In this document: positions 6,824 to 37,445 of the stretch, in pieces
How the letters are laid out: each line of letters begins with the position of its first letter
How positions within the stretch are numbered: position 1 is the first letter of the stretch
From: Pseudovirgaria hyperparasitica
Lineage: Eukaryota
Direction: 5' to 3' (one strand)
Length of the DNA stretch: 64,000 nucleotides
Assembly (NCBI GenBank): GCA_010093815.1
Contig: ML996576.1
Notes under the pieces: model-generated
What the model was told of the DNA's origin: nothing
Seen by the model: only the letters and a program-made list of their open reading frames with translations
Databases searched by the model: none
Made by a program: the position numbers and the translations under genes

Positions 6824-7385
6824 TGCTGTGGAGAGCACGAGGAGGCGATAGAATTTCGCGTCCCAGGTTCGTCACGACAGAGTTTGATAGATAAGTGACG
6901 GATAGGTCAAATCAAGGTGTCGTTATTCATGGACGTTGCTACGGAGCTCATGACGTCCTATTGAAGACGAGAGGATCGTGATGATTACCTCGGCCTTTGT
7001 TGAGAAGCTAGCAGGCTGCAGCAGGCTAGTAGAAGCCCGACGCTCTACACTGAGAGCGCCATAAAAAACTTTAAAGATTTGGCGATGATGGTCCAGATTA
7101 ATGTTTGAACATCGCCGCCCCCTTGATATGAACTTAAGGGAGCTGCACATGGGGCGCGAAATGCGGGGTCCGTTCGGTACCAGACACTACTTCTACGATG
7201 TCAACAAGGCTTCAAAAACTGCGGCGTCGTCTTCCCGGGCCACAGAGCTTCTCGAGCTGTAGAGGCTTTCAAGCCCTCCCAGCTTTGACGAGCCTTTATG
7301 CGGTGGCATCGATTCGAATAAATTCTGAGATACTGTCGTCGTGAGACTTGGTATATGTGTGTTACAGCACGCAAATAACGGAGAC

Positions 7386-9226
7386 ATGGACCCAATTACG
7401 ATCATTGGTACGGCTGGAGCTCTTTGCAACATCATCGATGTGCTCTATAAGACTATCCAGAGCGCAATCCAGCTCCGAAACCAATATTCGGATGCCGACA
7501 TGACCATGCTCAGCCTCATTGCCCAGCTCACAGCACTCAAGGCTGCGCTATCGAAAATCCAAGATATCATCGATGGTGACTCAGGAGATCTATACCATCA
7601 ATTCATAATGGATCTCGACACCTCGATCACTTGCGTGAGATTACTCATCGGCAAGATCGAAGGACAATTCTCTGAACTCAAGACGAATGAGAAGGGCATG
7701 GATTTTACGAGTAAAGTCAAGTTTGTGTTTGGCAGCAGAGGAGTTGAGGAGACGCAAAGGATGATTGACCACCAAACGAGCGCTCTTATCTTACTATTAA
7801 ATGCAATTACTTAGTGGGTGCCTTATAACTGTTACTGCTAGTCAATGTGCTGACTCAGAATAGCAAGACTGTCAGTGAGCAACAAGGTATCTTGGAAAAA
7901 TCAGAAACCCGTAAGGTCATGCAAAGGATGCAGTGGGACTCGGAAAGCCTGGTAGTTCACCGAGATACTGACTCGTTCTTTTCACGCTACACGGACAAAC
8001 TTTCAAAGTTGTCCCTGGTCTTTCATTTTGATCGGGAATTCTTGATAACAAGAGTTTATGAGAAAGCTCTAAGGTCATCTCTGAAACACGACCTGCGCAT
8101 AAAACAACGTAGAATGATCTCTGAATCTAGTAAAGAAGATAAAGCCCGGTCCGTGGCCATTGACCGGCGCCTGAAGCAAGATAGTCGTGGTCTGTGCCAG
8201 AACGTCAAAGTCCTACTATTTGGACTTGAAGATAGCGGAAAAGATGCAATGGTCAAACATATGAAGCTCAAGTCTGCAAATGGGTACACTCGCTCAGAAC
8301 TGATAGAGTGGCGACAGATGATCAAGGCAAAGCTACTCCGGAATGTATTTGTACTTCTCGATGCCATGGAGCAATGTGGCATTGAACCCGGAAATGAGTC
8401 TAACATCAGCCACTGTGAATTTCTCATGAGATGTCGCTTAGACAACCCCATGAATGGTCGACTAGACTTCCATATAGGCGTTGCTATCCAAGCCCTATGG
8501 AACGATCCGTGCATGGCTAAAGTTCTTAAGCATTCCGCTGGCACCGATTATACCTTGGACGGCGAAGCCCGATAGTAAGATCCAGCATTTCCAGACTTAC
8601 AGTGAGAACAACCGCTGACGAAGTGTAGTTTATTCGAGCAGACGTCACGCATCGTCCAGCCACATTACGAGCCCACTGTGGAAGACATCCTTAGAACAAA
8701 TGACGAATCAAGAGGAATCCGTGAGACAGATTTTGTATTTGAAACTTTCCAAATGACGATTTTCGATATAAACACGAGACAACTAGGCGAGCAGCAGAAG
8801 TGGATACACGCATTCGAGACCGTGACTTCCATCATGTTTGTGGTAGATCTTGCGGATTACGAATCGATACATTCTGACCATGATTCGGGAGGTATGACGG
8901 AATCTCTTACACTCTTTGACTCTATGGTGAACTCTCGCTGGTTCTCACGGTCGTCTGTGATCCTCTTCCTCACAAATATGCATGCTTTCAGGAATAAACT
9001 TTTGAGGACTCCTTTCTCAAGCTACTTTCCCGACTATACTGGGCCCGATGATGCAGCTGCGATCTTGCAGTACATTATCAAAAGATTCAATGCATGCAAC
9101 AGATGCCATCTCGACTTCTTTCCACATGTCTTGGAACTATCAGATCCTGTCAGTCTCAAGCTTCTCCTCAAGGCTGTTCAAGAGACAACGGTAAACAACG
9201 CCCTTAGGACTCTAGGCAAGATCTAG
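7386..9226 (+). CDS. Fusion of a fungal STAND-type N-terminal (HeLo-like) domain with a degenerate heterotrimeric G-protein alpha domain; 3 exons, 578 aa
   Basis: Exons 7386-7813, 7864-8574 and 8629-9226 total 1737 nt in frame. Introns are GTGGGT..CTGAC..TAG and GTAAGA..CTGAC..TAG. N-terminus MDPITIIGTAGALCNIIDVL..LSLIAQLTALKAALSKI. G-alpha landmarks: RSVAIDRRLKQD, VKVLLFGLEDSGK, IQALWNDP, YEPTVEDILRT, KWIHAFETVTSIMFVVDLADY, ESLTLFDSMVNSRWF, YFPDYTG. Confidence 0.88.
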
Positions 9227-9923
9227 CAGTCTTGAAAACAGGTTCCTCGCCCAACGCGAAAGCCCACGGGTACAACGGATCAGCATCCTCTGGACCAGCA
9301 CGGTGCTACAACAGTCAACCACCGTAATGGAGCTTTGAATGGAGTGAATATGCGCTGATTCCAGTCGCTGTCTGAACAAGCACGTCCTAACCATAATCCA
9401 TCGCTCCTTCGAATTGCTTTCTACACAATTTTCGCCCCCGAGGAGGTCACAAGCGCTGATGCTGAACGCCCTTGAAACCACAAGACATCAAGTGCGGTGA
9501 GTATTAGTGGTGAATAAGCGCAGCAAAAGTCAATGTTGGATTCATGCACAGTAAGCACAACAACATGGCTTTCAAGGCAGAAGCGCTGCTTTCGTACTAG
9601 GCTCTCAGCCTAAGATCAAAATTCCAAGGATATATATTGGATCTGACGCAGGAACCAGCACTTAACCGAGCTGGGCGAACGCCACCTGCAACAGTCCTGA
9701 ACGATACCTATAGCACAGAGAGCCTACTAATAACAGCTTTGGACGTCGTCTATACACTTTAGGCTGCGAAACGCACTGACCACCGCGAATGTTCCACTGT
9801 TTCTAGGTTGCTTTACAGACTTATCTCAAATCAGCCTTCGACAACACGTTGTGCGTGGAATCAAGTGGACGAAATGAGCAGGCCATGCGAGCTTGACTGT
9901 GTAGTAGCCTAGTGATGCCAAGG

Positions 9924-9930
9924 TATAAAA
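9924..9930 (+). promoter_or_regulatory. TATA box of LysM gene
   Basis: TATAAAA about 110 nt upstream of the ATG at 10037. Confidence 0.5.
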
Positions 9931-10036
9931 GCACGCTCATCTGCTGGATGTCCAGTCGAACATCATCAAAGCATATCCTCGACTATCGACGACTTCTTAT
10001 TTACTATACTACCGTCTCTTCGATAATCCAAAGACC

Positions 10037-10645
10037 ATGATGCTCATCCGCTCAGTCTCCGCCTTGATGACTCTCGGCTCGATTGCAGCAGCGAACCCCT
10101 TCCCTGCGTCATACTCTCTCACTACACGTCAAGATAATGAGGGCTGCAATGACAACTCGACTCGCTACACGTCCACGTCAGCGGGCTCTGTTTGCCTCTA
10201 CCGCCCTTCCGACTGCACAGCGACCACGCTCGTCGAGTCCGGCGATACTTGTAACAGCATCGCAGATCGTTTCAACAATTTCACCCTTTCCGTCTTCCGT
10301 TACTGGAACCCTGATATCGGACAGACATGTTTTGGACTTCGCGCCTACACTCCCGTGTGTATCGGAACACCATGGTACACGTTCACGCCTCCGGTACAGT
10401 CTCCCGATGGAACCATCGTTGGAACGACAGACTTGAACCCGACCCAGCTCCCCGTTCCAGTTATGCCAAGCATTGTGGAAGAATGCAACAGGTACTTCCT
10501 GGCTGGAAGCGGACAGAGAGTCGATGCGATTGCGCCTGCTGCAGGCGTTTCCGTGGAAGATATTTTGAGCTGGAACCCGACTTTGGACAAGGAGAATCCG
10601 GTGACATGGGCTGGGTACTGGCTTTGCGTTGGTGTCAGCGCATAG
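10037..10645 (+). CDS. Secreted LysM-domain protein (LysM effector-like, two Cys-containing fungal LysM modules)
   Basis: Signal-peptide-like MMLIRSVSALMTLGSIAAA. Modules VESGDTCNSIA..F..WNPDIG..C..L....VCIG and CNRYFL..SG....IA...GVSVEDILSWNP....WAGYWLCVGV. No catalytic domain. Confidence 0.9.
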   Translation: MMLIRSVSALMTLGSIAAANPFPASYSLTTRQDNEGCNDNSTRYTSTSAGSVCLYRPSDCTATTLVESGDTCNSIADRFNNFTLSVFRYWNPDIGQTCFGLRAYTPVCIGTPWYTFTPPVQSPDGTIVGTTDLNPTQLPVPVMPSIVEECNRYFLAGSGQRVDAIAPAAGVSVEDILSWNPTLDKENPVTWAGYWLCVGVSA

Positions 10646-17079: not shown

Positions 17080-19638
17080 TCAATCCCAGGAGCCCGGCCA
17101 GCTGGGGTATTCAGGCTCCGTCTCCGCAAGCCTTGCATACTCAGCCGATGCGAACGGGAGGGTCTGGATGTAGTAGGCAAACTCCGCGTTCTCCTCCTCC
17201 CCTACCACGTCCTCTGGACCGAAACGCCTGGTCATTTGCTCCTCGGGCATTTCGACGAATTTGTGCTCGGGCAGCAAGACCTGGTCTCCCGTGTCAGGGG
17301 ATACTTGATTCTCCTCCTCATTATCGTCAACCTCCTCCTCCTCCTCCACCTCCTCCTCCGCCTCCGCCTCCGCCTCCGCCTCCTCCGCCTCCTCCTCCTC
17401 CTGCTGCTGCTGCTGCTGTGTGGCGTCTGGTACAGCGGAATTGTTGCCCAAGAAGAATGCCTGTGGACCAATGCCCTGATTGGGATTGTAGACCTGATTG
17501 TTTCCATACTCATGGTATGGGAATTGAGGGAATGTCTGTGCGTATACGTCCTGCTCGCTAAGGAACTGGTATGATGGATCAATGGACGCAAAACTGGGGA
17601 TCGGTTCCGTGTGAACCTTACTATCAGTCTGAGACTGTTCCTGAGCATAAAAGCCGTCGATTGACATCTCATTGGGAGCGCTAGGATCCATAAACGCGTT
17701 GTTGTCATGGTAGTATGGTACGGTAGACATAGCTGGCCCAGCCGCAAAGTCGAGTTCTGGTGGGGGTGCAAGATTGGAGCCAAGTGTGTCGAGAAGATCT
17801 TGCTCAGCCATCACGGAGCCGTAGAGAGGCGTACTACTGTTCTGATGTCGAAAACTTTGGGATCGAGGGCGAGCCGGGCCTAGCGGGCCTGGAGACATAG
17901 TTGGTATTTCAGAGTATTGATGCATATACTCTGTCTGGATTGGGCCGATGCTCTCTGGGTCTGGTTCTGTCCGTGATTGAGGATTCTTTCGAGATCTGCG
18001 TGCCCTTTTCGGGGGCTTGGGGTTTTGTTGCTCGTTGTTGTCATGGTTAGACAAGACAGCGTCAGGATCTTCAACACCAGAATCACCCAAAGAGCGCAAG
18101 CCTGTGGTACCCGGAGCACTGAATGAGCGAGCATCGGTGGCACCACCAGTGCCGAAAGAGTGAAAGTCGTTGAAAGTAGTCTCACCAAAATAGCTTCCCA
18201 TATGGTTCTGAAGACAGTCAGCTATTCCACCGGAATCGTTTTGCATTGGATGAATGGGCTGCTCCTCCTGAGTCTCGATAGAGTTAACAAACGATGAAGT
18301 ATTGAAGCCTTCGTTTTCTGTTGCGTCCGGGGTATCTGCGCGCTTACGCTTCTCATTAATGAGCAACTTGGAAATGTCGACTTTCAGGATGACGAGACAG
18401 CTTCTACCAGTGGGAGTCTTGTTTGACGATGATTGGGCTTCAGGGCTGCCTAGCTCGATACCACTGCTGTTCTCTTTCGAGCTCTGGTCATCGAGAGATT
18501 CAAAAGCATCATCGTGATCAGCAGGCAACTGGTAGCTGGGCCGGTTGGCTCTTGTGGCTCTCTTTGGCCCTCTTCTGTTCCGCTTAGAAATAGTAACACC
18601 ATACTCTCCGTCAGAGCCGTCTGATTCTGGGAGATCCTCAAGTGGGGTGGATGAAGAGACACCGAGAGATGTAGCTTTCTTGCCCTTCTTCGCCTTCTTC
18701 CCCTTCTTCGTCTTCTTTGGTGGGCGACGAATTGGGCTGTCATCGACAAAAGTATTAAGAGAGGGACGTGCCCTTTCCTCATCGGAGTCAGATTCATCTC
18801 CAAAACCAGCAGCATTGGTCGTGGCAGTGTTTCCGCGTGTGCTACTTCGCACACCGCGATGGGAGCCCCTGGCTACTGAGACCTGATGCCGCTGGTCGCC
18901 ATGTTGTGCCGCCCCTTGATTTTCCGAGGCGCTGCGAGTGTTCTGTTCAACACCATCACCTGCTTTCTCGGCTTTGCGTTGGTCCCGGGAGTTCTGTAGA
19001 TTGATGCGACGCTTATCAATCAATTCGGGGACGATCCTACCATTCGCCATGAGCTCGTTGCGCCACTTGACAAACTTTTGTTCAGTCGCATCGGGAGTGG
19101 GCTCCTCCTTCAAACATCCAAGAACGTTCTTGGTGAGCAACGTGTAGACCTTGGCTCGGTCTTTCAAGATATCCCATAGAGCTCTCTCGGCGTTCAGAAG
19201 CATGAGCATCCGGATGTCCTTTTCTGTAACTTGTAAGCAGCCTGCGAAGCTCAATGATATCCCAAACTTACGATCCCAGCTAACCAAGTTGCGTACCTTC
19301 TCACGGGCGATTGAAGTCTTCGGAACACTACTATCGATCTTCCGACCTTTAACTTTCTCATGGGCACCTGGTGGATCTCGGTTGCTACTCTTCGTAAGAT
19401 CTTTCGAAGTAACGGAAGAGCTAGCTGTCACCGTATCACCCAAGGACTGCTCAGACGGCTGAGTGACTTTAGTGAGTTTGACATACTCTCTATCTTTACC
19501 CGGAGCTCCATCCTCAAAGATCTTTACTGCGACTTCTGGATTGGTGAGAGAGACCTCGAGACCTGCAAAATCTGACTTGACGATAGTCGCGGCGTGCTCA
19601 GGTTGAACACTGTCTGCACGGTTTCTGACTTGAGACAT
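17080..19638 (-). CDS. Hypothetical 852-aa, largely low-complexity/disordered protein
   Basis: Long uninterrupted ORF with an ATG in good context. Basic clusters (KKTKKGKKAKKGKK, PPKRARRSRK) and a poly-Q/E tract. No family recognised. Confidence 0.7.
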   Translation of the reverse strand: MSQVRNRADSVQPEHAATIVKSDFAGLEVSLTNPEVAVKIFEDGAPGKDREYVKLTKVTQPSEQSLGDTVTASSSVTSKDLTKSSNRDPPGAHEKVKGRKIDSSVPKTSIAREKVRNLVSWDRKFGISLSFAGCLQVTEKDIRMLMLLNAERALWDILKDRAKVYTLLTKNVLGCLKEEPTPDATEQKFVKWRNELMANGRIVPELIDKRRINLQNSRDQRKAEKAGDGVEQNTRSASENQGAAQHGDQRHQVSVARGSHRGVRSSTRGNTATTNAAGFGDESDSDEERARPSLNTFVDDSPIRRPPKKTKKGKKAKKGKKATSLGVSSSTPLEDLPESDGSDGEYGVTISKRNRRGPKRATRANRPSYQLPADHDDAFESLDDQSSKENSSGIELGSPEAQSSSNKTPTGRSCLVILKVDISKLLINEKRKRADTPDATENEGFNTSSFVNSIETQEEQPIHPMQNDSGGIADCLQNHMGSYFGETTFNDFHSFGTGGATDARSFSAPGTTGLRSLGDSGVEDPDAVLSNHDNNEQQNPKPPKRARRSRKNPQSRTEPDPESIGPIQTEYMHQYSEIPTMSPGPLGPARPRSQSFRHQNSSTPLYGSVMAEQDLLDTLGSNLAPPPELDFAAGPAMSTVPYYHDNNAFMDPSAPNEMSIDGFYAQEQSQTDSKVHTEPIPSFASIDPSYQFLSEQDVYAQTFPQFPYHEYGNNQVYNPNQGIGPQAFFLGNNSAVPDATQQQQQQEEEEAEEAEAEAEAEEEVEEEEEVDDNEEENQVSPDTGDQVLLPEHKFVEMPEEQMTRRFGPEDVVGEEENAEFAYYIQTLPFASAEYARLAETEPEYPSWPGSWD
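17331..17418. repeat. Compound microsatellite (CTC)n/(CTCCGC)n/(CTG)6 encoding QQQQQQEEEEAEEAEAEAEAEEE
   Basis: Directly visible tandem tri- and hexanucleotide units inside the 852-aa ORF. Confidence 0.9.
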
Positions 19639-22600
19639 GATGAACGCTTGAAGAGGTTTAGAAGTCCTGAGATCTTGAGTTTAACTGGAAACCTTACGTA
19701 GTGAGTGAGGCAAAATCAACTTTTGACGCGACACGAGATGAAATTGAGGCAGCAGATGGCTTTTGATGCATTGAAAGAAGATAGGACAGAAGGAAGATAG
19801 ATATCAGAAGTACTGAAGCCGAGAAATCTTCAATTGACAAGTAAACTCCGTTTTCTGAAGCTTGTTGCTAAAGAGTTGAGGTGAGGTTGGTCGGTGAACT
19901 TGAAGCTTTACCTCTAAAAACAGTGTGACTGTAAACACACTAAGCTACTTTGAGCTCTTTTGACACGTAGAAGTACGCTCACAAGCCGACTATACGAATC
20001 ACTACAGTGAATCGTTCTGAGATCTTAGATCTATTACTTATCCCTTGCTTGAAGGGCTAGCAGCAGCAAGGGCCTACGAACAATCACGCGGCTATGAATT
20101 CTGATCGAGGCTCTTATATAACTAGTTCAACAAGGATCAACTTTCGGCATCACAAACAGAACAACCGCAAATATGCTGTCACGCAGTCTATCTGGCGAAG
20201 CTCGTCTACGACGTGAGTTGATTTCAGACGTTCATGTCTCCTCAGTTGTATCACCTTGACTTTCACTGTAGGTCTAGTCGATATGTCGGAAACACTACAT
20301 TTCCTTCACTTCTCACTTGAGATGTTGTGATCAAAGCTTTCAAGCCCCGTACATCAAGGGTAGGGCCCTACAGACTATTAGAACTCTAGCCGCGCAAGCA
20401 TCTCAGTATATTATTTTCTGGCTTTGGGGCCGATATGGACATCCATAGCCACAAAGCAGCTTATGGCGGTCTAAGATCTATCTTCTATCTATCTATCTGC
20501 CTGAAGCCGAGTTATGGCATACCCCCAATGTTGGGCTGAGAATTGTGAAGGAGGCCTTAAGGGGGTGGGTGGCATCACCAAGACATGACTGCGCTTTGAG
20601 GAAGGACCTAGTGTAAAACCGTTGTTAGCTCCAGACTTCAAGGGATTTTAAGTATGAGACCATGTTTTGACATCAATCTTGCCTACAAACCGTGCGAAGC
20701 CATTCTCCAAATCTTTTGCTCGCTTCCATCAGTCACTCAATGTAGTCTGGCTACCAAGCTTTGCTTCGTCCATCTCACAGATCTCAGGATTATCCATGAT
20801 GCCATCAAGGCTTCCTTATGCCTCTCGAACTCATGTAAGTAGGCCCTCGTAGACCTTATACTGGCTGAACTATGTTAGTATCTTGCTTCCGAGTTAATTT
20901 CTTCTGCAGGAAGGACCCAGGGGCATTTCTTCAGATCTGAATGATCCCGAGTATTCCAACAGATATATAGACATGAAGGCTCGAATTGAAGTTGGTACTA
21001 GTCTCACAGTATCTAGTGGTGCTCGAATACTTGGCGTAAGGGAAAAGCGCGATTGCCAATCGTCTTTCATCGCAATCCAGATTAGACGAAGACTGCCAAA
21101 TCGACGAGAGGTATATTGTACGTTGAGGTTCGAAAGTAGATATAGCCATCTAGTATAGCCACTGGAGTGTCAGTGTTCTGACCAGCGAATAAATCTCTTA
21201 ACGATTGTAAGACGAAAGCCAGGGGTAGCGGTTACTTACCTTCAGAGTTGGAATCTCAGCGTCATATTCAATTCTCCGTATGTAGGAGTACCTATATGAG
21301 TTCATGTTGCGTAGTAATGGCTCTGCATGACCAAGTGTCTTCAGGCTTTCGGCGTTTAGCTAGTAGGCTACAGGCTTTTTGTGACCTGATGTATCAATGA
21401 CGGTGAGTAAATCGTTCGAAACCGTCTTATGTCCTCATTGATTACGAAGACTCCATGCTTCAGAATTTTAGTTCATTATGACAGCAGATTGGTAACAGGA
21501 TGATGGTTCTTGTCGGATTGAAAAAAAATTGGTGAAATCCCCGGCAGTTCATGAATGCTAGCATGATGAACTCTGCAAGAACGTCTGATATTCGTGTTAT
21601 ATTGCGCTACCGTGATGTAATCCAGCGTCTAAACGTATTCTCGGGCGATTCTGCTTGTAATTGTATGTTATTCAACGATGGATCAACTGATGACATTGAA
21701 ATTGGGGTTCCCTAAGTCTCGACCAATATTGCGACTTAACACGCGCCTGATAGGAATGCCTTAGCCGACAATGACAGTTGGAAGGAATATGAATATACTT
21801 ACTATATTATGAGTCCTCCGGTGCCCTAGACGAAGACATTCCTGCAGAATACTCGTTGCGATCGTGAACTTTGATCTTGTGGTATTGGTCGAATACATAA
21901 TCTCCAACAACCCTGTAGTGCTAAGGCCAGAAGTATCATGAAGCTGACAACAAACAGTTTGGGTATCATACCTGCACAGAGGTACTATGACGATAAAGGC
22001 GCATTATCGAATGGTGGTGTTTAGCATGCTCTGTACATGCCAGAGCGAAGAAAACATATGGAAGAAAGGCGCTAGTCAGCTTCACAAATTTTCAAGATTC
22101 CTGCGTCTACTTCACATATCTATGCTTATAATATGCGCAATCAATTTCTCCTTCGACAATATATTGCCCCCAACAAAAAGATTGAACCCTGGATATGATT
22201 AACATGAGATAGCGCTCTAGAGCTGCTTTGAGCTTGGGCGAGAGCGAGAGAGACTGCCATGAATCAGCCTCACCTTCCAGTTTCCAGCTTATACGGTTAC
22301 AGTAGTAGCTACAAGAACGATAGTCGCCTGGAAAGATGAACACAACGACCGCTTACCCATTGCTAGCCTATCATGGACGTCCAGCTATCCTCGCCCCTTA
22401 TTAACACATTTCAGGAGTGTTACACTCCCAGGGCACAAAAGATTCAAGGGATTTCAAGACAGACTGTCACGTCTGTTTTGTGTAAGTCTGGCTTCTACTA
22501 TAAGTCACCAGCAAGATGGACACCCGAGTATGAAAGGACTGAAAGAGATACATACTTTATAAAAAGACCTCCGGAAAGTGTTGATACAGCGCTCCAGCAT

Positions 22601-34827: not shown

Positions 34828-36333
34828 TCATACAATGCCGTCCTCGGAGCACTTGCCCGCAGTCTCCATGCTGCGCAACGTATTCGAGCTCGTCAACAGA
34901 TCCAACTCGCCCGCCGCACGCGGGTGCTCGCTCTCGTCCAGTCTGGCAATACTGTGCCGGCCCGAGACAATGCCCGGAAACACCTTGCCCCACAGCCCGC
35001 CTGCGTCGAGCAAGATGGGCACTTCCTGCGTCGCCTGCGCCGCGGTCGTGGCTGTGTTGGTGGACGTGATGGTGGTGGTGATGGTGCTGGTCAGAGCCGG
35101 GTCGCCTGGATATATGCTCTCGTGGCGTCGTCGGGGAATGATCTCGTCGCCGGCGCGCGCGGTATGGTCGCCGGCTGAATCGAGCCCGGCGGAGACGCGG
35201 ACTTTGAAGACGGAGGAGTTGGGCGCTTGGGCGACCATGGTGGTGCGTTTGGGGGTGCGGACGTGGCGCCACATGGGGCGGAGGGTGGCGAGGCAGGAGG
35301 TGGTGATGGCGAGGCCGGGCTCGACGGAAGACCAGATGGCGATGTCGGTTGTTGCGTCTGTTTGGGAGGTAGGTTAGTTTGGTGGAAGGGACAGAAAGGT
35401 CTTGAGAGGAGACGTACAGAGGAAGTCGTCGCTGGTGAGGGCGTGGAGGTGGAACATGCGGACGATGGGGGCGAAGCAGGCACTGTTGGTAGCGTTAGGG
35501 ATTTGAAGTCGATGTAGGAAGGAGGTTACGCACATTGTCGCCATGCTCAGGATGCCGAACAGGATGGCTTTATCCCGCCAGCCCAGATTCAGGGTGAAGA
35601 TTAGGAAGATAGGTTGGCCGGCGAAGATGAAGTCGGTTACGACGCATATCACGCTGAACCAGTATGCCAGGGCAACATAGGTGTGGGGGTTGATGCACGT
35701 GCCCTGGTGTGTGCTGTCGCGGGCGAGTCTCGTCCAGAAGAAGGAGGCGGGCTTGCATTGGAAGGCAACGATGAAGACAAAGATGACGCCTGCGATTATG
35801 GTGACGTGGATGGCGTGCCATAACAAATAACGCTGGTGGCGGTAGATGGTGATGCGTAGCAGGAAGAGGCCGACGGAGACTTTGACGATGGTGATGATGA
35901 CGCCGTACATGAGATAGGCGATCCACCAGATCTGAACATTGTTAAGACGAGCTGGTAGTGTGAGTAAGGAGGGGAGCGGTACCAGCATAGTCCGTTTGAT
36001 GTGCTCATCATCGAGCTGTGAGACGTGCTCCCCAATTCCAAAACGAACTCCGAGTATGCAAAACACGCTGAATATGAGATATAGGAACTGTGCTACGGTC
36101 AGCGGAGGGGTATCATGGCAAGGAATTGTAGAATCGAGTTCCAGGATCAGTGATGTTGGGGGTCGGGGTGGCTTTTTGGGACTTACAAGAGCTATTGTTG
36201 CAAGGAAGTCATCAGCACCGAACCTCTTCAACAGACAGCGTCTGGTATAACATCGCAGCGAGACGGTGATGGTGGCTAGCACACTGAAGATTGAAACAAC
36301 ATATATCAGTGTAAGGCCGTGAGCAGCCAGCAT
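34828..36333 (-). CDS. Pth11-like (fungal rhodopsin-domain) 7TM integral membrane protein without CFEM domain, about 5 exons
   Basis: Motifs TVSLRCYTR, FGADD, GIGEH, VKVSVGLFLLRI, FQCKP..FW, TDFIFA..PI. After a GTACGT..CTAAC..CAG intron it continues DDFL|YATTDIAIWSSVEPGLAITTSCLATLRPM. Confidence 0.88.
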
Positions 36334-37445
36334 GATCAGAGGCAAGACACTCTATACGAACATGACCAAGTCGAGAAAGAAGTCAAGGAAGACCCAGGAT
36401 ATAACGCATTGGAACGGATCGCATCAGGGCACAGTCAGCGGGTTAAGGTTATGTGCAGGTTGGGTCTGGGTTTGAAGAATTCTAGGCTTGTACGGTGCTA
36501 AAGAAGGACATACAAGGCGGTAAACTGTAAAGTGCACATGTGGCAGATGTCACCTAGGCTCTAGTGAAGTAGTGGATGGCGATCTGCTAGCAGAGCCGCA
36601 GACTGGAATTGGGGGAGAGAGAGTTCGTCTCGGTGTAGGGAAAGGAGAAGATTAAGTTTGACGACAGCTGTCGTCCAAGCCTCTTTGGGGGAGGTTCAGC
36701 AAATAAGTTTCGATGGCTGTAGTCAAACTAACTTCGAGTAGCGTCGATCGGCAGACCAAGACAACTTTATCGGACGGATTCCTCGGGCTTTGGCGAGCTT
36801 GACGACAGAACAAGATTAACGGAGGACGGAATTCACGAGAGCAACACGAAGATGTTGATGTTTTGATGACGCTTCATTCGTATCGGGCACCCAGGCAGCC
36901 GGCAGCCACTCGCCACGAGTCATGCGCTGCACATCAAACAAACAATGATACGGTATTGATGCATTATCGGTACTGTATATAATATGCATGTACGGATGTG
37001 GCTTGAATGCACAGTCTCACTCTTATGGCCTTTAAACCCTTGTCCATATTTCACGTCCCCGTTCTGCAGCTGGGATGTAGCTTCACGCTGTCGCATAACA
37101 GTTCCGTGGCGTTCACATCGTCAGAAATAGCAGTCTTTAGTATTAATAGAGATATAATTAGATACACTAGCTGATAGTGCAGAATGCTACGTGGATCGAA
37201 ATCATCTACTATCGCCTTCTATCTAATTACCTGTAAATTGGTCATGGTCTTTTGATGGCTAATACTACCCCTATTATCCGGAGAGTCGGCGACAAGTCCG
37301 CGTAGCTACCATGCTGAAAAGTACGGAGGCCATGCCAAGCCCTACTGTACCTATCTCATCTACACTTTTTGGTTCCAGTGATGCCTTAAGGCCTTAATGT
37401 CTTACAGCCTTATCGCCGCCTAGGCATATGTGTAGCTGCCTGACT

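What the first reader, a model, noticed from the sequence alone, without database searches (positions are those of the whole stretch)
7386..9226. HeLo-like STAND N-terminal domain fused to a pseudo-G-alpha subunit: candidate fungal immune/cell-death switch or G-protein decoy
Seen: three ORF fragments join through two canonical introns (7814-7863, 8575-8628) into one 578-aa frame. The first ~200 aa are an amphipathic helical module starting MDPITIIGTAGAL and ending in a F-x-FD...RVY linker, followed by a complete G-alpha fold from the alphaN helix to the C-terminal helix. Established: MDP(L/I)S/T-type HeLo/HeLo-like domains are the N-terminal effector domains of fungal NLR (STAND) proteins and HET-S-type membrane-permeabilising proteins, and canonical G-alpha subunits start with a short lipidated N-terminus (e.g. 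MGxxxS), which is absent here. Inference: the G-alpha domain takes the place of the usual NACHT/NB-ARC switch. It could be an integrated decoy or sensor for GPCRs, G-beta-gamma, RGS proteins or G-alpha-targeting toxins, coupled to a cell-death domain. It lies in an accessory-looking block beside a LysM effector. I cannot tell from sequence alone whether this architecture has already been characterised.
Basis: partly seen in the sequence, partly recalled or inferred. Interest (0 to 1): 0.85.

Follow-up and report, generated by a model that had tools for sequence, protein, structure and literature searches.

The report
HeLo-like domain fused to pseudo-G-alpha
This is a real, spliced fungal gene that joins a helical bundle of the kind fungi use to kill their own cells to a G-protein alpha subunit that has lost its enzyme motifs; it belongs to a widespread family that nobody has studied.

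Summary
ATG 7386, introns 7814-7863 and 8575-8628 and stop 9224-9226 give one 578-aa frame. Assembled contigs from two public runs skip exactly these two GT..AG introns.

Residues 227-578 are a complete G-alpha domain. Its G3, G4 and G5 boxes and its switch-I arginine are lost.

Residues 1-141 are predicted as four long helices. The window's copy has no Pfam hit, but 25 of 45 relatives hit PF17111, the HeLo-like domain.

The architecture recurs in Pezizomycotina: 33 of 46 long relatives of exon 1 carry G-alpha. None of 36 rows keeps DxxG together with the catalytic Gln.

The public model of this gene has 352 aa and lacks the N-terminal domain. The Podospora anserina member is split into two models. 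One of them was listed in 2013 as a "HeLo + P-loop" gene induced 6.15-fold in the incompatibility reaction.

Best reading: an MLKL-like module, a membrane-targeting bundle controlled by a pseudo-GTPase. The function is inferred, not shown. The surrounding region holds housekeeping genes and is not accessory.

The parts
7386..7813 (+). Exon 1 (codons 1-142 plus two bases of codon 143). It holds the start codon and the four-helix N-terminal bundle.
   Evidence: The ORF opens after a stop at 7326-7328 and its first ATG is at 7386. The start MDPITIIG matches the family consensus M(A)DPxxIxG.
7392..7448 (+). Residues 3-21 (PITIIGTAGALCNIIDVLY), a hydrophobic N-terminal helix rich in small residues.
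   Evidence: This is the most hydrophobic 19-mer of the whole 578-aa protein (Kyte-Doolittle mean 1.49). The same holds within residues 1-12 for 11 of 21 relatives examined. It is part of helix 3-33 in the model.
7392..7808 (+). Residues 3-141, a predicted up-down four-helix bundle (H3-33, H39-64, H70-100, H107-141). It is a PF17111/HeLo-like-type domain by transitive homology.
   Evidence: AlphaFold2 on alignment A1: pLDDT 84.9, pTM 0.79. 25 of 45 A1 members hit PF17111 at E<=0.01, but the window's copy does not. ESM Atlas neighbours are PigL_N/SesA clusters at 0.95-0.97.
7814..7863 (+). Intron 1 (50 nt, GT..AG, CTGAC branch-like site).
   Evidence: It is skipped exactly in one contig of each of runs X1 and X2.
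7864..8574 (+). Exon 2 (last base of codon 143 through two bases of codon 380).
   Evidence: Relatives align without a gap across both junctions.
7865..8113 (+). Residues 144-226: two further helices and a conserved linker block (DxxSLVVHRD, SKLSLVFHFDREFLITRVY). The public 352-aa model omits this stretch.
   Evidence: The block is conserved in the family alignment. In the model of relative P0006 the equivalent helices 148-181 have block pLDDT of about 88-93 up to residue 170, falling to 74 for 171-180; the linker that follows is below 50.
8114..8574 (+). First part of the G-alpha domain: the alphaN helix, a degenerate P-loop and the helical domain. ATG 8114 is where the public 352-aa model starts.
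   Evidence: P0161 equals residues 227-578 exactly. Pfam G-alpha and Gt/Gi alignments.
8222..8248 (+). G1 box GLEDSGKDA, against canonical GAGESGKST. The Gly...GlyLys is kept, but the Ser/Thr after the Lys is replaced by Asp-Ala.
8575..8628 (+). Intron 2 (54 nt, GT..AG, GCTGAC branch-like site).
   Evidence: It is skipped exactly in contigs of X1 and X2.
8629..9226 (+). Exon 3: the Ras-like half of G-alpha through the alpha5 helix, the tail ...NNALRTLGKI and the stop at 9224-9226.
   Evidence: Pfam G-alpha model 145-332 of 333, E 1.9e-46. Go alpha residues 160-352 aligned, E 9.9e-38.
8684..8725 (+). Switch I DILRTNDESRGIRE. The arginine aligned with the canonical catalytic Arg is Asn, and the Mg-binding Thr position is Ser.
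   Evidence: Alignment to Go alpha (RTRVKTTGI against RTNDESRGI).
8756..8815 (+). Switch II TIFDINTRQLGEQQKWIHAF. The DxxG glycine is Thr and one residue is inserted, but the KWIHxFE core is kept.
8972..8983 (+). G4 box TNMH in place of NKxD, so the guanine-specificity Asp is lost. The G5 box TCA is LEL.

Best explanation
The locus is one expressed three-exon gene for a 578-aa, two-module protein.

Module 1 (residues 1 to about 180) is a helical bundle of the HeLo-like (PF17111) kind. Its first helix is the most hydrophobic stretch of the protein.

Module 2 (residues 227-578) is a complete G-alpha fold. It has lost the residues needed for canonical guanine-nucleotide binding and hydrolysis, but it keeps alphaN, the switch-II KWIHxFE core and a receptor-type C-terminal tail.

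Proposed mechanism (inferred). The protein works like MLKL or an 'all-in-one' HeLo-NLR. The pseudo-GTPase is the regulatory or sensing domain and holds the bundle inactive. A change in its partners or conformation frees the N-terminal helix, which goes to the membrane and damages it as part of a non-self or stress response.

Shown here: the gene model, the splicing, the domain identities, the motif loss, the recurrence of the family, and induction of a P. anserina member during incompatibility (from a paper).

Inferred: membrane targeting, autoinhibition and the trigger.

My confidence is about 0.9 for the architecture and the pseudo-GTPase state. The figure given below is for the cell-death-switch mechanism.
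For: Gene model and splicing:
- The frame is continuous once two GT..AG introns are removed.
- Contigs of runs X1 and X2 skip exactly those introns.
- The closest full-length relative, P0006, aligns colinearly: query 4-578 to subject 5-637, 37.9% identity, 428 bits. The alignment has no gap at either junction.

G-alpha domain:
- PF00503 covers model positions 2-332 of 333 over the two exons. Go, Gi and Gt are the best solved relatives.
- The model of P0006 superposes on Gi/Gq at TMt 0.80-0.87.
- Motif loss in the window's protein: GLEDSGKDA, RTNDESRGI, DINT.., TNMH, LEL.
- Of 36 family rows, 3 keep G1+G3+G4 and 11 keep DxxG. Reading the table, none has DxxG followed by Gln.

N-terminal domain:
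- 462 proteins match exon 1 at E<=1e-3 among 50%-identity representatives.
- Of the 46 listed hits of 300 aa or more, 33 carry PF00503 (23 above the gathering score) and 10 carry PF17111 at E<=1e-3 (1 above the gathering score).
- 25 of 45 short relatives hit PF17111 at E<=0.01.
- The model is a four-helix bundle, pLDDT 84.9. MLKL 4HB scores Z 10.4-11.6, Rx-CC 11.2, NRC2 11.1 and NRG1.1 CC-R 10.3.
- Residues 3-21 are the most hydrophobic 19-mer of the protein. Passages of two reviews say that HeLo/HELL activity relies on an N-terminal helix with transmembrane propensity (PMC10197012; PMC12881547).

Link to non-self response:
- Table 5 of PMC3689799 (passages read) lists Pa_5_11500 (354 aa) under 'HeLo, pore-forming toxin', with associated domain 'P-loop' and a maximum fold change of 6.15 in incompatibility.
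- That protein is residues 1-339 of the 603-aa family member P0101 (99% identity). Pa_5_11490 is residues 402-602.

Divergence:
- Within the family the N-domain is better conserved than the G-alpha part: mean pairwise identity 37% against 22% over 496 pairs of 32 rows. A conserved executor with a fast-evolving sensor would give this pattern. That reading is an inference.
Against: - The window's own exon 1 has no Pfam hit at E<=1, so it is tied to PF17111 only through relatives.
- No member examined hits HeLo PF14479 in the current Pfam at E<=1, the P. anserina protein included. I could not reproduce the 2013 label.
- Foldseek gives no match at E<=1e-3. In the VIA lists, generic bundles (a ciliary protein, IncA, Cbl TKB, designed proteins) score Z 12-13.5, above MLKL.
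- PF17111 also occurs on proteins with no link to cell death; its present Pfam name comes from a pigment-cluster protein (description).
- Toxicity, membrane binding and nucleotide binding were not measured. Induction in P. anserina concerns a distant member of clade A, not this clade.
- The runs laid are not on record as RNA. Their contigs span neighbouring genes, so they show the spliced form but not one transcript or its start.
- The G-alpha tree does not place all fusion proteins on one side of a branch (2 changes needed).
Confidence: 0.45

Rival explanations
1. Non-lethal signalling adaptor. The helical bundle replaces the lipid anchor of canonical G-alpha as a membrane- or partner-binding module. 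The pseudo-G-alpha binds G-beta-gamma, a GPCR, RGS or Ric8 without cycling, and so tunes or buffers heterotrimeric G-protein signalling. Plant extra-large G proteins, or a built-in dominant-negative subunit, would be comparable.
For: - AlphaN, the switch-II core KWIHAFE and a tail ...NNALRTLGKI that resembles canonical ...NNLRGCGLY are kept while the catalytic motifs are lost.
- There is no myristoylation-type start.
- A paper lists Pa_5_11490 among genes down-regulated in a sexual-development mutant, which is a developmental rather than an immune context (PMC6709928 passage).
- PF17111 is not restricted to death effectors (description).
Against: - Many family members have also lost the switch-II core and the tail, for example P0004, P0019, P0055 and P0082. 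Partner surfaces of canonical G-alpha are therefore not a family-wide constraint.
- The G-alpha part diverges faster than the N-domain.
- The P. anserina member was induced with HET, NACHT and HeLo genes in incompatibility.
Confidence: 0.3
2. Decaying duplicate. This is a G-alpha paralogue that picked up a 5' exon and is drifting, so the motif loss reflects loss of function rather than a new role.
For: - The G boxes are degenerate.
- End branches in the G-alpha tree are long (median 0.77, up to 3.07).
- A. flavus workers judged the long G-alpha GaoC (690 aa) 'probably inactive' and did not study it (PMC5869405 passages; length from the table in PMC13267034). Whether GaoC belongs to this family was not tested here.
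Against: - The 578-codon frame is intact with canonical splice sites, and the spliced form is present in assembled contigs.
- The same two-domain architecture is kept in four classes of Pezizomycotina.
- The whole G-alpha fold is predicted with high confidence in a relative; pLDDT is mostly above 85 from residue 290.
- Conserved blocks lie outside the catalytic sites.
Confidence: 0.1
3. Two separate products. The public 352-aa G-alpha model (start at 8114) is the real protein, and exon 1 belongs to another small gene or to a 5' UTR.
For: - A 352-aa protein identical to residues 227-578 is deposited as 'G protein alpha subunit'.
- The P. anserina S mat+ annotation also has two models.
- Contigs cannot show where a transcript starts.
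Against: - Intron 1 lies upstream of 8114 and is removed in the contigs, which restores one frame from ATG 7386.
- The 83 codons between the intron and M227 are open and conserved in relatives.
- 33 of 46 long relatives of exon 1 carry G-alpha in the same chain.
- Newer annotations of four Podospora species give a single 603-aa protein.
Confidence: 0.05

Closest known systems
HeLo-like (HELL, PF17111) and HeLo (PF14479) domain proteins of fungi: HELLP, HELLF, HET-S
   Same: An N-terminal helical bundle that starts at residue 1, with a hydrophobic helix rich in small residues. Relatives hit PF17111. The predicted four-helix bundle resembles the MLKL 4HB and plant CC domains at Z 10-11.6.
   Different: There is no C-terminal amyloid (prion-forming) motif, and no NLR partner gene was seen in the window. 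The C-terminal partner domain is G-alpha. The window's copy itself is below every Pfam threshold.
MLKL (four-helix bundle plus pseudokinase, necroptosis executioner)
   Same: The logic is the same: an N-terminal membrane-targeting bundle joined by helices to a catalytically dead signalling-enzyme fold. MLKL 4HB chains are among the structural matches (4btf_A Z 11.6, rmsd 2.4, 100 aligned). The MLKL architecture is taken from passages of PMC12881547.
   Different: The dead enzyme is a G-alpha GTPase, not a kinase. There is no evidence of a phosphorylation trigger, and the similarity in function is an analogy.
Canonical fungal G-alpha subunits (groups I-III: GNA-1/2/3, FadA/GanA/GpaB)
   Same: The full G-alpha fold, from alphaN to alpha5 and including the helical domain.
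   Different: It has a 226-aa N-terminal extension instead of a lipidated MG start, and it has lost G3, G4, G5 and the switch-I Arg. Identity to the unfused G-alphas sampled is 26-34%.
Podospora anserina Pa_5_11500 / Pa_5_11490 (one gene, 603 aa, in newer Podospora annotations)
   Same: The same two-domain family. Exon 1 matches P0101 at E 5e-17, and the two P. anserina models map to residues 1-339 and 402-602 of P0101. The gene was listed as HeLo + P-loop and induced 6.15-fold in incompatibility.
   Different: It belongs to clade A, which keeps GAGGSGKST, DVGG and TKxD and has Ser in place of the catalytic Gln. It may therefore still bind GTP. The window's protein is in clade B, which has lost these boxes.
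GaoC of Aspergillus flavus/oryzae
   Same: A long G-alpha (690 aa) with substituted P-loop glycines and Gln replaced by Ser, which its authors judged probably inactive (PMC5869405 passages; PMC13267034 table).
   Different: I could not obtain its sequence, so membership in this family and the presence of the N-terminal bundle were not tested.
Plant extra-large G proteins (XLG). This comparison is recalled and comes from no call.
   Same: A G-alpha-like domain with degenerate GTPase motifs behind a long N-terminal extension, with roles in immunity together with G-beta-gamma.
   Different: The XLG extension is a different region (cysteine-rich, with a nuclear localisation signal), not a HeLo-like bundle. 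This was not tested here.
Fungal NLRs with HeLo-like N-termini ('all-in-one' architecture)
   Same: An N-terminal HeLo-like effector followed by a P-loop NTPase-fold domain.
   Different: There is no NACHT or NB-ARC domain and no WD40, ANK or TPR repeats. G-alpha belongs to a different GTPase class from STAND NTPases.

Membership tests
G-alpha (PF00503) | Full-length match to the G-alpha profile above the curated cut-off | tested here: met
   Exon 2 scores 69.5 bits (model 2-132) and exon 3 scores 159.2 bits (model 145-332 of 333), against a cut-off of 48.8.
G-alpha (PF00503) | A Ras-like domain with an inserted helical domain, colinear with solved G-alpha chains | tested here: met
   Alignments to Gt alpha-3 residues 20-157 and Go alpha residues 160-352. 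The model of relative P0006 has TMt 0.80-0.87 to Gi/Gq. The window's own G-alpha part was not folded.
G-alpha (PF00503) | Intact G1-G5 nucleotide-binding boxes (GxxxxGK[ST], RxxT, DxxGQ, NKxD, TCA; the motifs are recalled) | tested here: not met
   The window has GLEDSGKDA, RTNDESRGI, DINT.Q, TNMH and LEL.
G-alpha (PF00503) | Catalytic Arg (switch I) and Gln (switch II) | tested here: not met
   Asn aligns with the Arg. A Gln lies near the position, but after DINT plus one inserted residue, not after DxxG.
G-alpha (PF00503) | N-terminal lipidation motif (MG...) | tested here: not met
   The protein starts MDPITIIG, and alphaN begins only near residue 230.
HeLo-like / Helo_like_N / PigL_N (PF17111) | Match to the PF17111 profile | tested here: inconclusive
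   The window's exon 1 has no hit at E<=1 or at E<=0.01. 25 of 45 aligned relatives hit at E<=0.01, best 3.7e-08. 10 of 46 long relatives hit at E<=1e-3, and only P0047 reaches the cut-off (27.4 against 27.2 bits).
HeLo-like / Helo_like_N / PigL_N (PF17111) | Domain at the extreme N-terminus, with a first helix of transmembrane propensity | tested here: met
   Residues 3-21 are the most hydrophobic 19-mer of the protein (mean 1.49). The same holds for 11 of 21 relatives. The criterion is taken from passages of PMC10197012.
HeLo-like / Helo_like_N / PigL_N (PF17111) | Four-helix-bundle fold related to the MLKL 4HB | tested here: inconclusive
   Four helices are predicted. MLKL scores Z 10.4-11.6, but unrelated bundles score Z 12-13.5, and Foldseek finds nothing at E<=1e-3.
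HeLo-like / Helo_like_N / PigL_N (PF17111) | Membrane targeting and induction of cell death | not testable with these tools
   This needs expression and localisation experiments.
HeLo (PF14479, HET-S type) | Match to the HeLo profile or to the HET-s HeLo structure | tested here: inconclusive
   No PF14479 hit at E<=1 for the window pieces or for 8 relatives, including the P. anserina protein. A 2013 paper lists that protein under HeLo.
Fungal NLR / STAND | Central NACHT or NB-ARC NTPase domain | tested here: not met
   The NTPase-fold domain is G-alpha. The only STAND-type hits are sub-threshold P-loop matches: nSTAND6 at E 0.17 for the window and NACHT at 19.6 bits, below the cut-off of 26.7, for P0173.
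Fungal NLR / STAND | C-terminal WD40, ANK or TPR repeat sensor | tested here: not met
   The protein ends with the G-alpha alpha5 helix, and Pfam finds no repeat family.
MLKL family | C-terminal (pseudo)kinase domain | tested here: not met
   There is no kinase family in the Pfam scan. The resemblance is one of design only.

The most novel reading that the evidence does not exclude
The dead G-alpha is an integrated bait, making the protein a non-NLR guard receptor of heterotrimeric G-protein signalling. It would sit in the place of a real G-alpha, on G-beta-gamma, on a GPCR or with RGS/Ric8. When a competitor's or parasite's toxin or effector attacks G-alpha, or when the heterotrimer is disturbed, the HeLo-like bundle would be released and the cell would be killed or sealed off. 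The faster divergence of the G-alpha half, the retention of alphaN, the switch-II core and the receptor-type tail in this clade, and the induction of a family member during non-self recognition are all compatible with this reading. None of them demonstrates it.
Probability: 0.12. Interest if true: 0.9.

Novelty: new variant of a known kind. Interest (0 to 1): 0.62.

Why it matters
Fungal cell-death executors of the HeLo/HELL kind are known with three types of control: amyloid motifs, STAND NTPases and kinase-like domains. If the reading here is right, a G-alpha-derived pseudo-GTPase is a fourth kind of control domain. That would link heterotrimeric G-protein machinery to regulated cell death.

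There are also practical consequences:
- The gene is mis-annotated in at least two genomes. It is truncated here and split in P. anserina S mat+. As a result the family is counted as an extra or inactive G-alpha in G-protein surveys and is missed in surveys of HeLo-like architectures.
- The family offers natural comparisons for experiments. Clade A keeps its nucleotide-binding boxes but lacks the catalytic Gln, while clade B has lost the boxes.
- P. anserina, which carries a clade A member, is a genetically tractable model.

Tried and rejected
Searches that found nothing or could not run:
- A word-index search with exon 2 among longer proteins found nothing.
- Earlier notes of this scan: none for this genome.
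- No whole genome is held for the window. Paralogue number and the species' own G-beta-gamma could therefore not be examined.

Sequencing runs:
- No RNA holder is listed. The two holders are of unrecorded kind and come from one sample and one study.

Fold searches of the exon-1 model:
- Foldseek gave 0 matches at E<=1e-3.
- The VIA wide search and the second look gave lists dominated by generic helical bundles. The HET-s HeLo domain is not in either top-50 list.

Complex prediction:
- Complex prediction with exon 1 against the 352-aa G-alpha part gave the verdict 'no answer' (score 0.01, mark 0.34; my alignments were not used). It says nothing either way.

Pfam:
- HeLo PF14479 was not found at E<=1 in the window pieces or in 8 relatives.

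Single or double origin of the fusion:
- The quick IQ-TREE of the G-alpha part (43 rows; rows with fewer than 250 residues in that part were dropped) gives two fusion clades. Clade B is sister to three unfused basidiomycete proteins (SH-aLRT 98).
- The unfused sample has only 11 rows, all found with my own query, and many branches are long. I draw no conclusion.
- Correlation of the distances of the two domains: Pearson/Mantel r 0.55 (0 of 2000 permutations as high), but Spearman only 0.12.

Literature:
- 0 papers hold 'HeLo-like' with 'G-alpha', 'HeLo-like' with 'heterotrimeric', or 'HeLo domain' with 'Galpha'.
- The listed papers that hold PF17111 or Helo_like_N concern other topics by title and abstract. 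One of them was also searched for G-alpha terms, with 0 occurrences.
- Two recent reviews have 0 occurrences of Galpha, G alpha, G-protein or GTPase.
- Not held, so not read: Daskalov et al. 2016 PNAS.
- Not listed by my search and not looked up by id: Anantharaman et al. 2011 Gene.
- Not sought: Lafon et al. 2006 and Dyrka et al. 2014. Any of these four papers may describe the architecture.
- The supplements of PMC3689799 were not opened.

Readings rejected:
- The accessory-region reading.
- The two-gene and pseudogene readings are kept only as low-odds rivals.
Full report
**1. Is it there?**

- An ORF opens after a stop at 7326-7328, and its first ATG is at 7386.
- It runs to a TAG at 7812-7814, where a GTGGGT donor begins at 7814. 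A CTGAC...TAG acceptor ends at 7863.
- The next frame runs to a TAG at 8573-8575 with a GTAAGA donor at 8575. A GCTGAC...TAG acceptor ends at 8628.
- The third frame ends at TAG 9224-9226.

Joining 7386-7813, 7864-8574 and 8629-9226 gives 1737 nt and 578 codons with one terminal stop.

Two public runs hold this DNA. They come from one sample and one study, are kept as assembled contigs, and their kind is not on record.
- One contig in each run (6517 and 9768 nt) lies on 7200-9400 without a single other letter.
- Both skip exactly 7814-7863 and 8575-8628, each GT..AG.
- Such a joined form is what cDNA looks like.
- The contigs run on over neighbouring genes. They show the spliced form, but they do not show a single transcript or its start.

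**2. The public model is shorter.**

A deposited protein named 'G protein alpha subunit [Pseudovirgaria hyperparasitica]' has 352 aa. It is identical to residues 227-578 and starts at the ATG at window 8114. It leaves out exon 1, intron 1 and 83 open codons of exon 2.

Three things argue for the long model.
- Intron 1 lies upstream of 8114 and is removed in the contigs.
- The omitted codons carry blocks conserved in relatives: DxASLxVxRD, then SKxSxxFxFDxELFxSxVY.
- Relatives annotated in other fungi have both halves in one chain (see section 5).

I do not know whether a separate public model exists for the 5' part.

**3. The C-terminal module.**

Pfam G-alpha (PF00503) matches exon 2 at residues 94-224 (model 2-132, 69.5 bits). 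It matches exon 3 at residues 2-186 (model 145-332 of 333, 159.2 bits). The cut-off is 48.8 bits. The best solved relatives are Gt, Go, Gi and Gq alpha chains. They align from alphaN (chain residue about 20) to the C-terminus (chain residue 352).

The fold is therefore complete, but the enzyme motifs are not. The canonical motifs below are recalled; the alignments are.

| Box | Canonical | Window |
|---|---|---|
| G1 | GAGESGKST | GLEDSGKDA |
| Switch I | RTRVKTTGI | RTNDESRGI (Asn at the catalytic Arg) |
| Switch II | DVGGQRSERKKW | DINTRQLGEQQKW (the DxxG glycine is Thr, one residue inserted) |
| G4 | NKxD | TNMH |
| G5 | TCA | LEL |

Three features are kept.
- The alphaN pattern.
- The switch-II core KWIHAFE.
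- The tail ...NNALRTLGKI, which resembles ...NNLRGCGLY of Go.

By its motifs this is a pseudo-GTPase.

**4. The N-terminal module.**

The window's exon 1 (142 aa) has no Pfam family at E<=1 apart from two chance-level rows.

An exhaustive HMMER search of 1.84 billion representatives found many relatives.
- 462 proteins at E<=1e-3.
- 194 at E<=1e-10.
- 9 at E<=1e-30.
- The best 150 were listed.

I scanned the 46 listed proteins of 300 aa or more against Pfam.
- 33 carry G-alpha at E<=1e-3, and 23 of these are above the cut-off.
- 10 carry PF17111 (PigL_N, formerly Helo_like_N) at E<=1e-3. Only P0047 is above the cut-off.
- 10 carry no family.
- P0048 carries PH_9 only.
- P0099 carries PNP_UDP_1 only.
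- P0081 carries HET in addition to G-alpha.

I then aligned the window's exon 1 with 44 short relatives, all taken from the 150 (alignment A1). 25 of the 45 members hit PF17111 at E<=0.01, with a best E of 3.7e-08. One hit SesA. The window's own copy hit nothing. The ESM Atlas places exon 1 beside PigL_N and SesA clusters at 0.95-0.97.

AlphaFold2 on A1 gives four long helices: 3-33, 39-64, 70-100 and 107-141 (pLDDT 84.9, pTM 0.79).

The fold searches are not diagnostic.
- Foldseek has no match at E<=1e-3. Its top rows are IncA and the potato Rx CC domain.
- In the VIA lists the MLKL 4HB scores Z 10.4-11.6, Rx-CC 11.2, NRC2 11.1 and NRG1.1 CC-R 10.3.
- A ciliary protein, IncA, Cbl and designed bundles score Z 12-13.5.
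- The tool itself warns that helical bundles reach such values by arrangement alone.

Residues 3-21 are the most hydrophobic 19-mer of the whole protein. This is also true, within residues 1-12, for 11 of 21 relatives. Passages of two reviews state that HeLo/HELL activity depends on such an N-terminal helix.

My reading: this is a divergent branch of the HeLo-like (PF17111) superfamily. The assignment rests on transitive sequence evidence and on consistent, non-specific structural evidence.

**5. The family.**

Full-length relatives align colinearly with the window's protein. The closest is P0006 (637 aa), at 37.9% identity over query 4-578 and subject 5-637. There is no gap at either exon junction.

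Sources name members from four classes.
- Sordariomycetes: Monosporascus, Podospora, Rhypophila, Clonostachys, Fusarium, Dactylonectria.
- Dothideomycetes: Massariosphaeria, Elasticomyces, Corynespora, Periconia, Bipolaris.
- Leotiomycetes: Botrytis paeoniae.
- Geoglossomycetes: Glutinoglossum.

They are called 'hypothetical protein', 'G-protein alpha subunit-domain-containing protein', 'GNA-3' or 'alpha-2 subunit'. The ESM Atlas has 13 clusters of 50 or more members of this type at 0.9 or more.

The G boxes were tabulated for 36 rows, the window plus 35 relatives.
- 3 rows keep G1, G3 and G4 together (P0101, P0133, P0146).
- 11 keep DxxG.
- 7 keep [NT]KxD.
- No row has DxxG followed by the catalytic Gln. 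Ser, Arg, Glu, Asn, Ala or Leu stand there instead.

A quick maximum-likelihood tree of the G-alpha part (43 rows) gives two fusion clades.
- Clade A has 7 rows, keeps the nucleotide-binding boxes, and has support 93.
- Clade B has 25 rows, has degenerate boxes, has support 98, and includes the window.
- Clade B groups with three unfused basidiomycete proteins.
- With only 11 unfused rows and many long branches, I cannot say whether the fusion arose once.

The N-domain is better conserved than the G-alpha part: mean pairwise identity 37% against 22% (32 rows, 496 pairs).

The full-length model of P0006 (pLDDT 80.4, pTM 0.56) has three parts.
- A confident bundle plus two further helices, up to residue 181.
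- A disordered linker (residues 181-205 and 221-287, pLDDT below 50).
- A confident G-alpha that superposes on Gi/Gq at TMt 0.80-0.87.

**6. What is in print.**

In P. anserina S mat+ the family member is split into two models.
- Pa_5_11500 (354 aa) is residues 1-339 of the 603-aa protein that newer Podospora annotations give (99% identity).
- Pa_5_11490 (199 aa) is residues 402-602.

Bidard et al. 2013 (PMC3689799; I read passages and Table 5) list Pa_5_11500 under 'HeLo, pore-forming toxin'. The associated domain is 'P-loop' and the maximum fold change is 6.15 in the incompatibility reaction. The same table lists other HeLo genes fused to 'Rho' and 'Pkc-like' domains.
- The current Pfam does not reproduce a HeLo hit on this protein.
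- The table does not call the P-loop part G-alpha.

A. flavus GaoC is a long G-alpha that was judged probably inactive and was not studied. It has 690 aa, its P-loop glycines are substituted, and Gln is replaced by Ser. It may belong to this family, but I could not test that.

My searches for a paper that joins HeLo or HeLo-like with G-alpha found none. Two recent reviews of fungal cell death and immunity do not mention G-alpha. Several relevant papers are not held (see Tried and rejected).

**7. How it most likely works.**

Shown:
- One gene, in spliced form, with two modules.
- Motif loss in the GTPase.
- A conserved architecture.
- Induction of one family member in a non-self reaction.

Inferred: the design is that of MLKL, and of HeLo proteins fused to kinase-like or small-GTPase domains.
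- The design pairs a membrane-targeting bundle with a dead signalling-enzyme fold that restrains it.
- In clade A the restraint may depend on a GTP-bound state that cannot be hydrolysed.
- In clade B, including this protein, the restraint would have to depend on protein partners or on conformation alone.

I give this cell-death-switch reading 0.45. The rivals are as follows.
- A non-lethal adaptor of G-protein signalling: 0.3.
- A decaying duplicate: 0.1.
- Two separate products: 0.05.

**8. Context.**

The window is an ordinary core region.
- Genes around the locus: a Zn2Cys6 factor, MaoC, CutC, a LysM protein, an epimerase and RNase III.
- Genes further along the window: TCP-1, Get5, an RsmB-like methyltransferase, a sugar transporter, Alg9, PLD, an ABC transporter and GARS.
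- GC is flat at 44-55%.
- There is no second copy of the gene in the window.
- No HET or NACHT gene was seen among the ORFs scanned.

**9. Verdict.**

- The finding is a new variant of a known kind: a HeLo-like bundle governed by a G-alpha-derived pseudo-GTPase.
- The family is widespread and already sits in databases under uninformative or misleading names.
- In at least two genomes the gene is mis-modelled.
- The function has not been tested.

Noticed in passing
window 8114-9226: The deposited protein for this gene (352 aa, 'G protein alpha subunit') starts at the internal ATG 8114. It lacks the 226 N-terminal residues that the spliced contigs and the relatives support.
   Followed up: yes
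P0101, P0173 and P0177 (Podospora): In P. anserina S mat+ the family member is annotated as two genes, Pa_5_11500 (354 aa, residues 1-339) and Pa_5_11490 (199 aa, residues 402-602). Four other Podospora species have one 603-aa model.
   Followed up: yes
P0081 (Fusarium longipes, 1050 aa); P0156 (Fusarium bulbicola, 1163 aa); P0099 (436 aa): These are longer chains in which the N-domain/G-alpha unit follows a HET domain (P0081), is joined to a sugar-transporter part (P0156), or in which the N-domain follows a PNP_UDP_1 domain (P0099). They may be merged neighbouring gene models or real fusions. HET and PNP_UDP_1 are typical fungal NLR effector domains.
   Followed up: no
ESM Atlas cluster; Table 5 of PMC3689799: There is a parallel architecture of PigL_N/HeLo with a small GTPase. 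One Atlas cluster of 77 members carries Ras in 96%, Roc in 69% and PigL_N in 12% (score 0.81, a lead only). P. anserina Pa_7_900 is listed as HeLo + Rho.
   Followed up: no
P0163, P0164 and P0165 (basidiomycete G-alphas, 351-366 aa): These unfused basidiomycete G-alpha proteins also have degenerate G1 and G3 boxes (for example GTDQSETST and DVGSQ). They group with clade B in the quick tree.
   Followed up: partly
window 9929-10645 (+): An ORF with a hydrophobic, signal-like start and a LysM match (PF01476, E 1.8e-06).
   Followed up: partly
window 35377-36351 (-): An ORF with a fungal rhodopsin domain (PF20684, E 1.6e-27).
   Followed up: no
window 17080-19680 (-): An 866-aa open frame with no Pfam family at E<=1e-3 or at E<=1e-5.
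   Followed up: no
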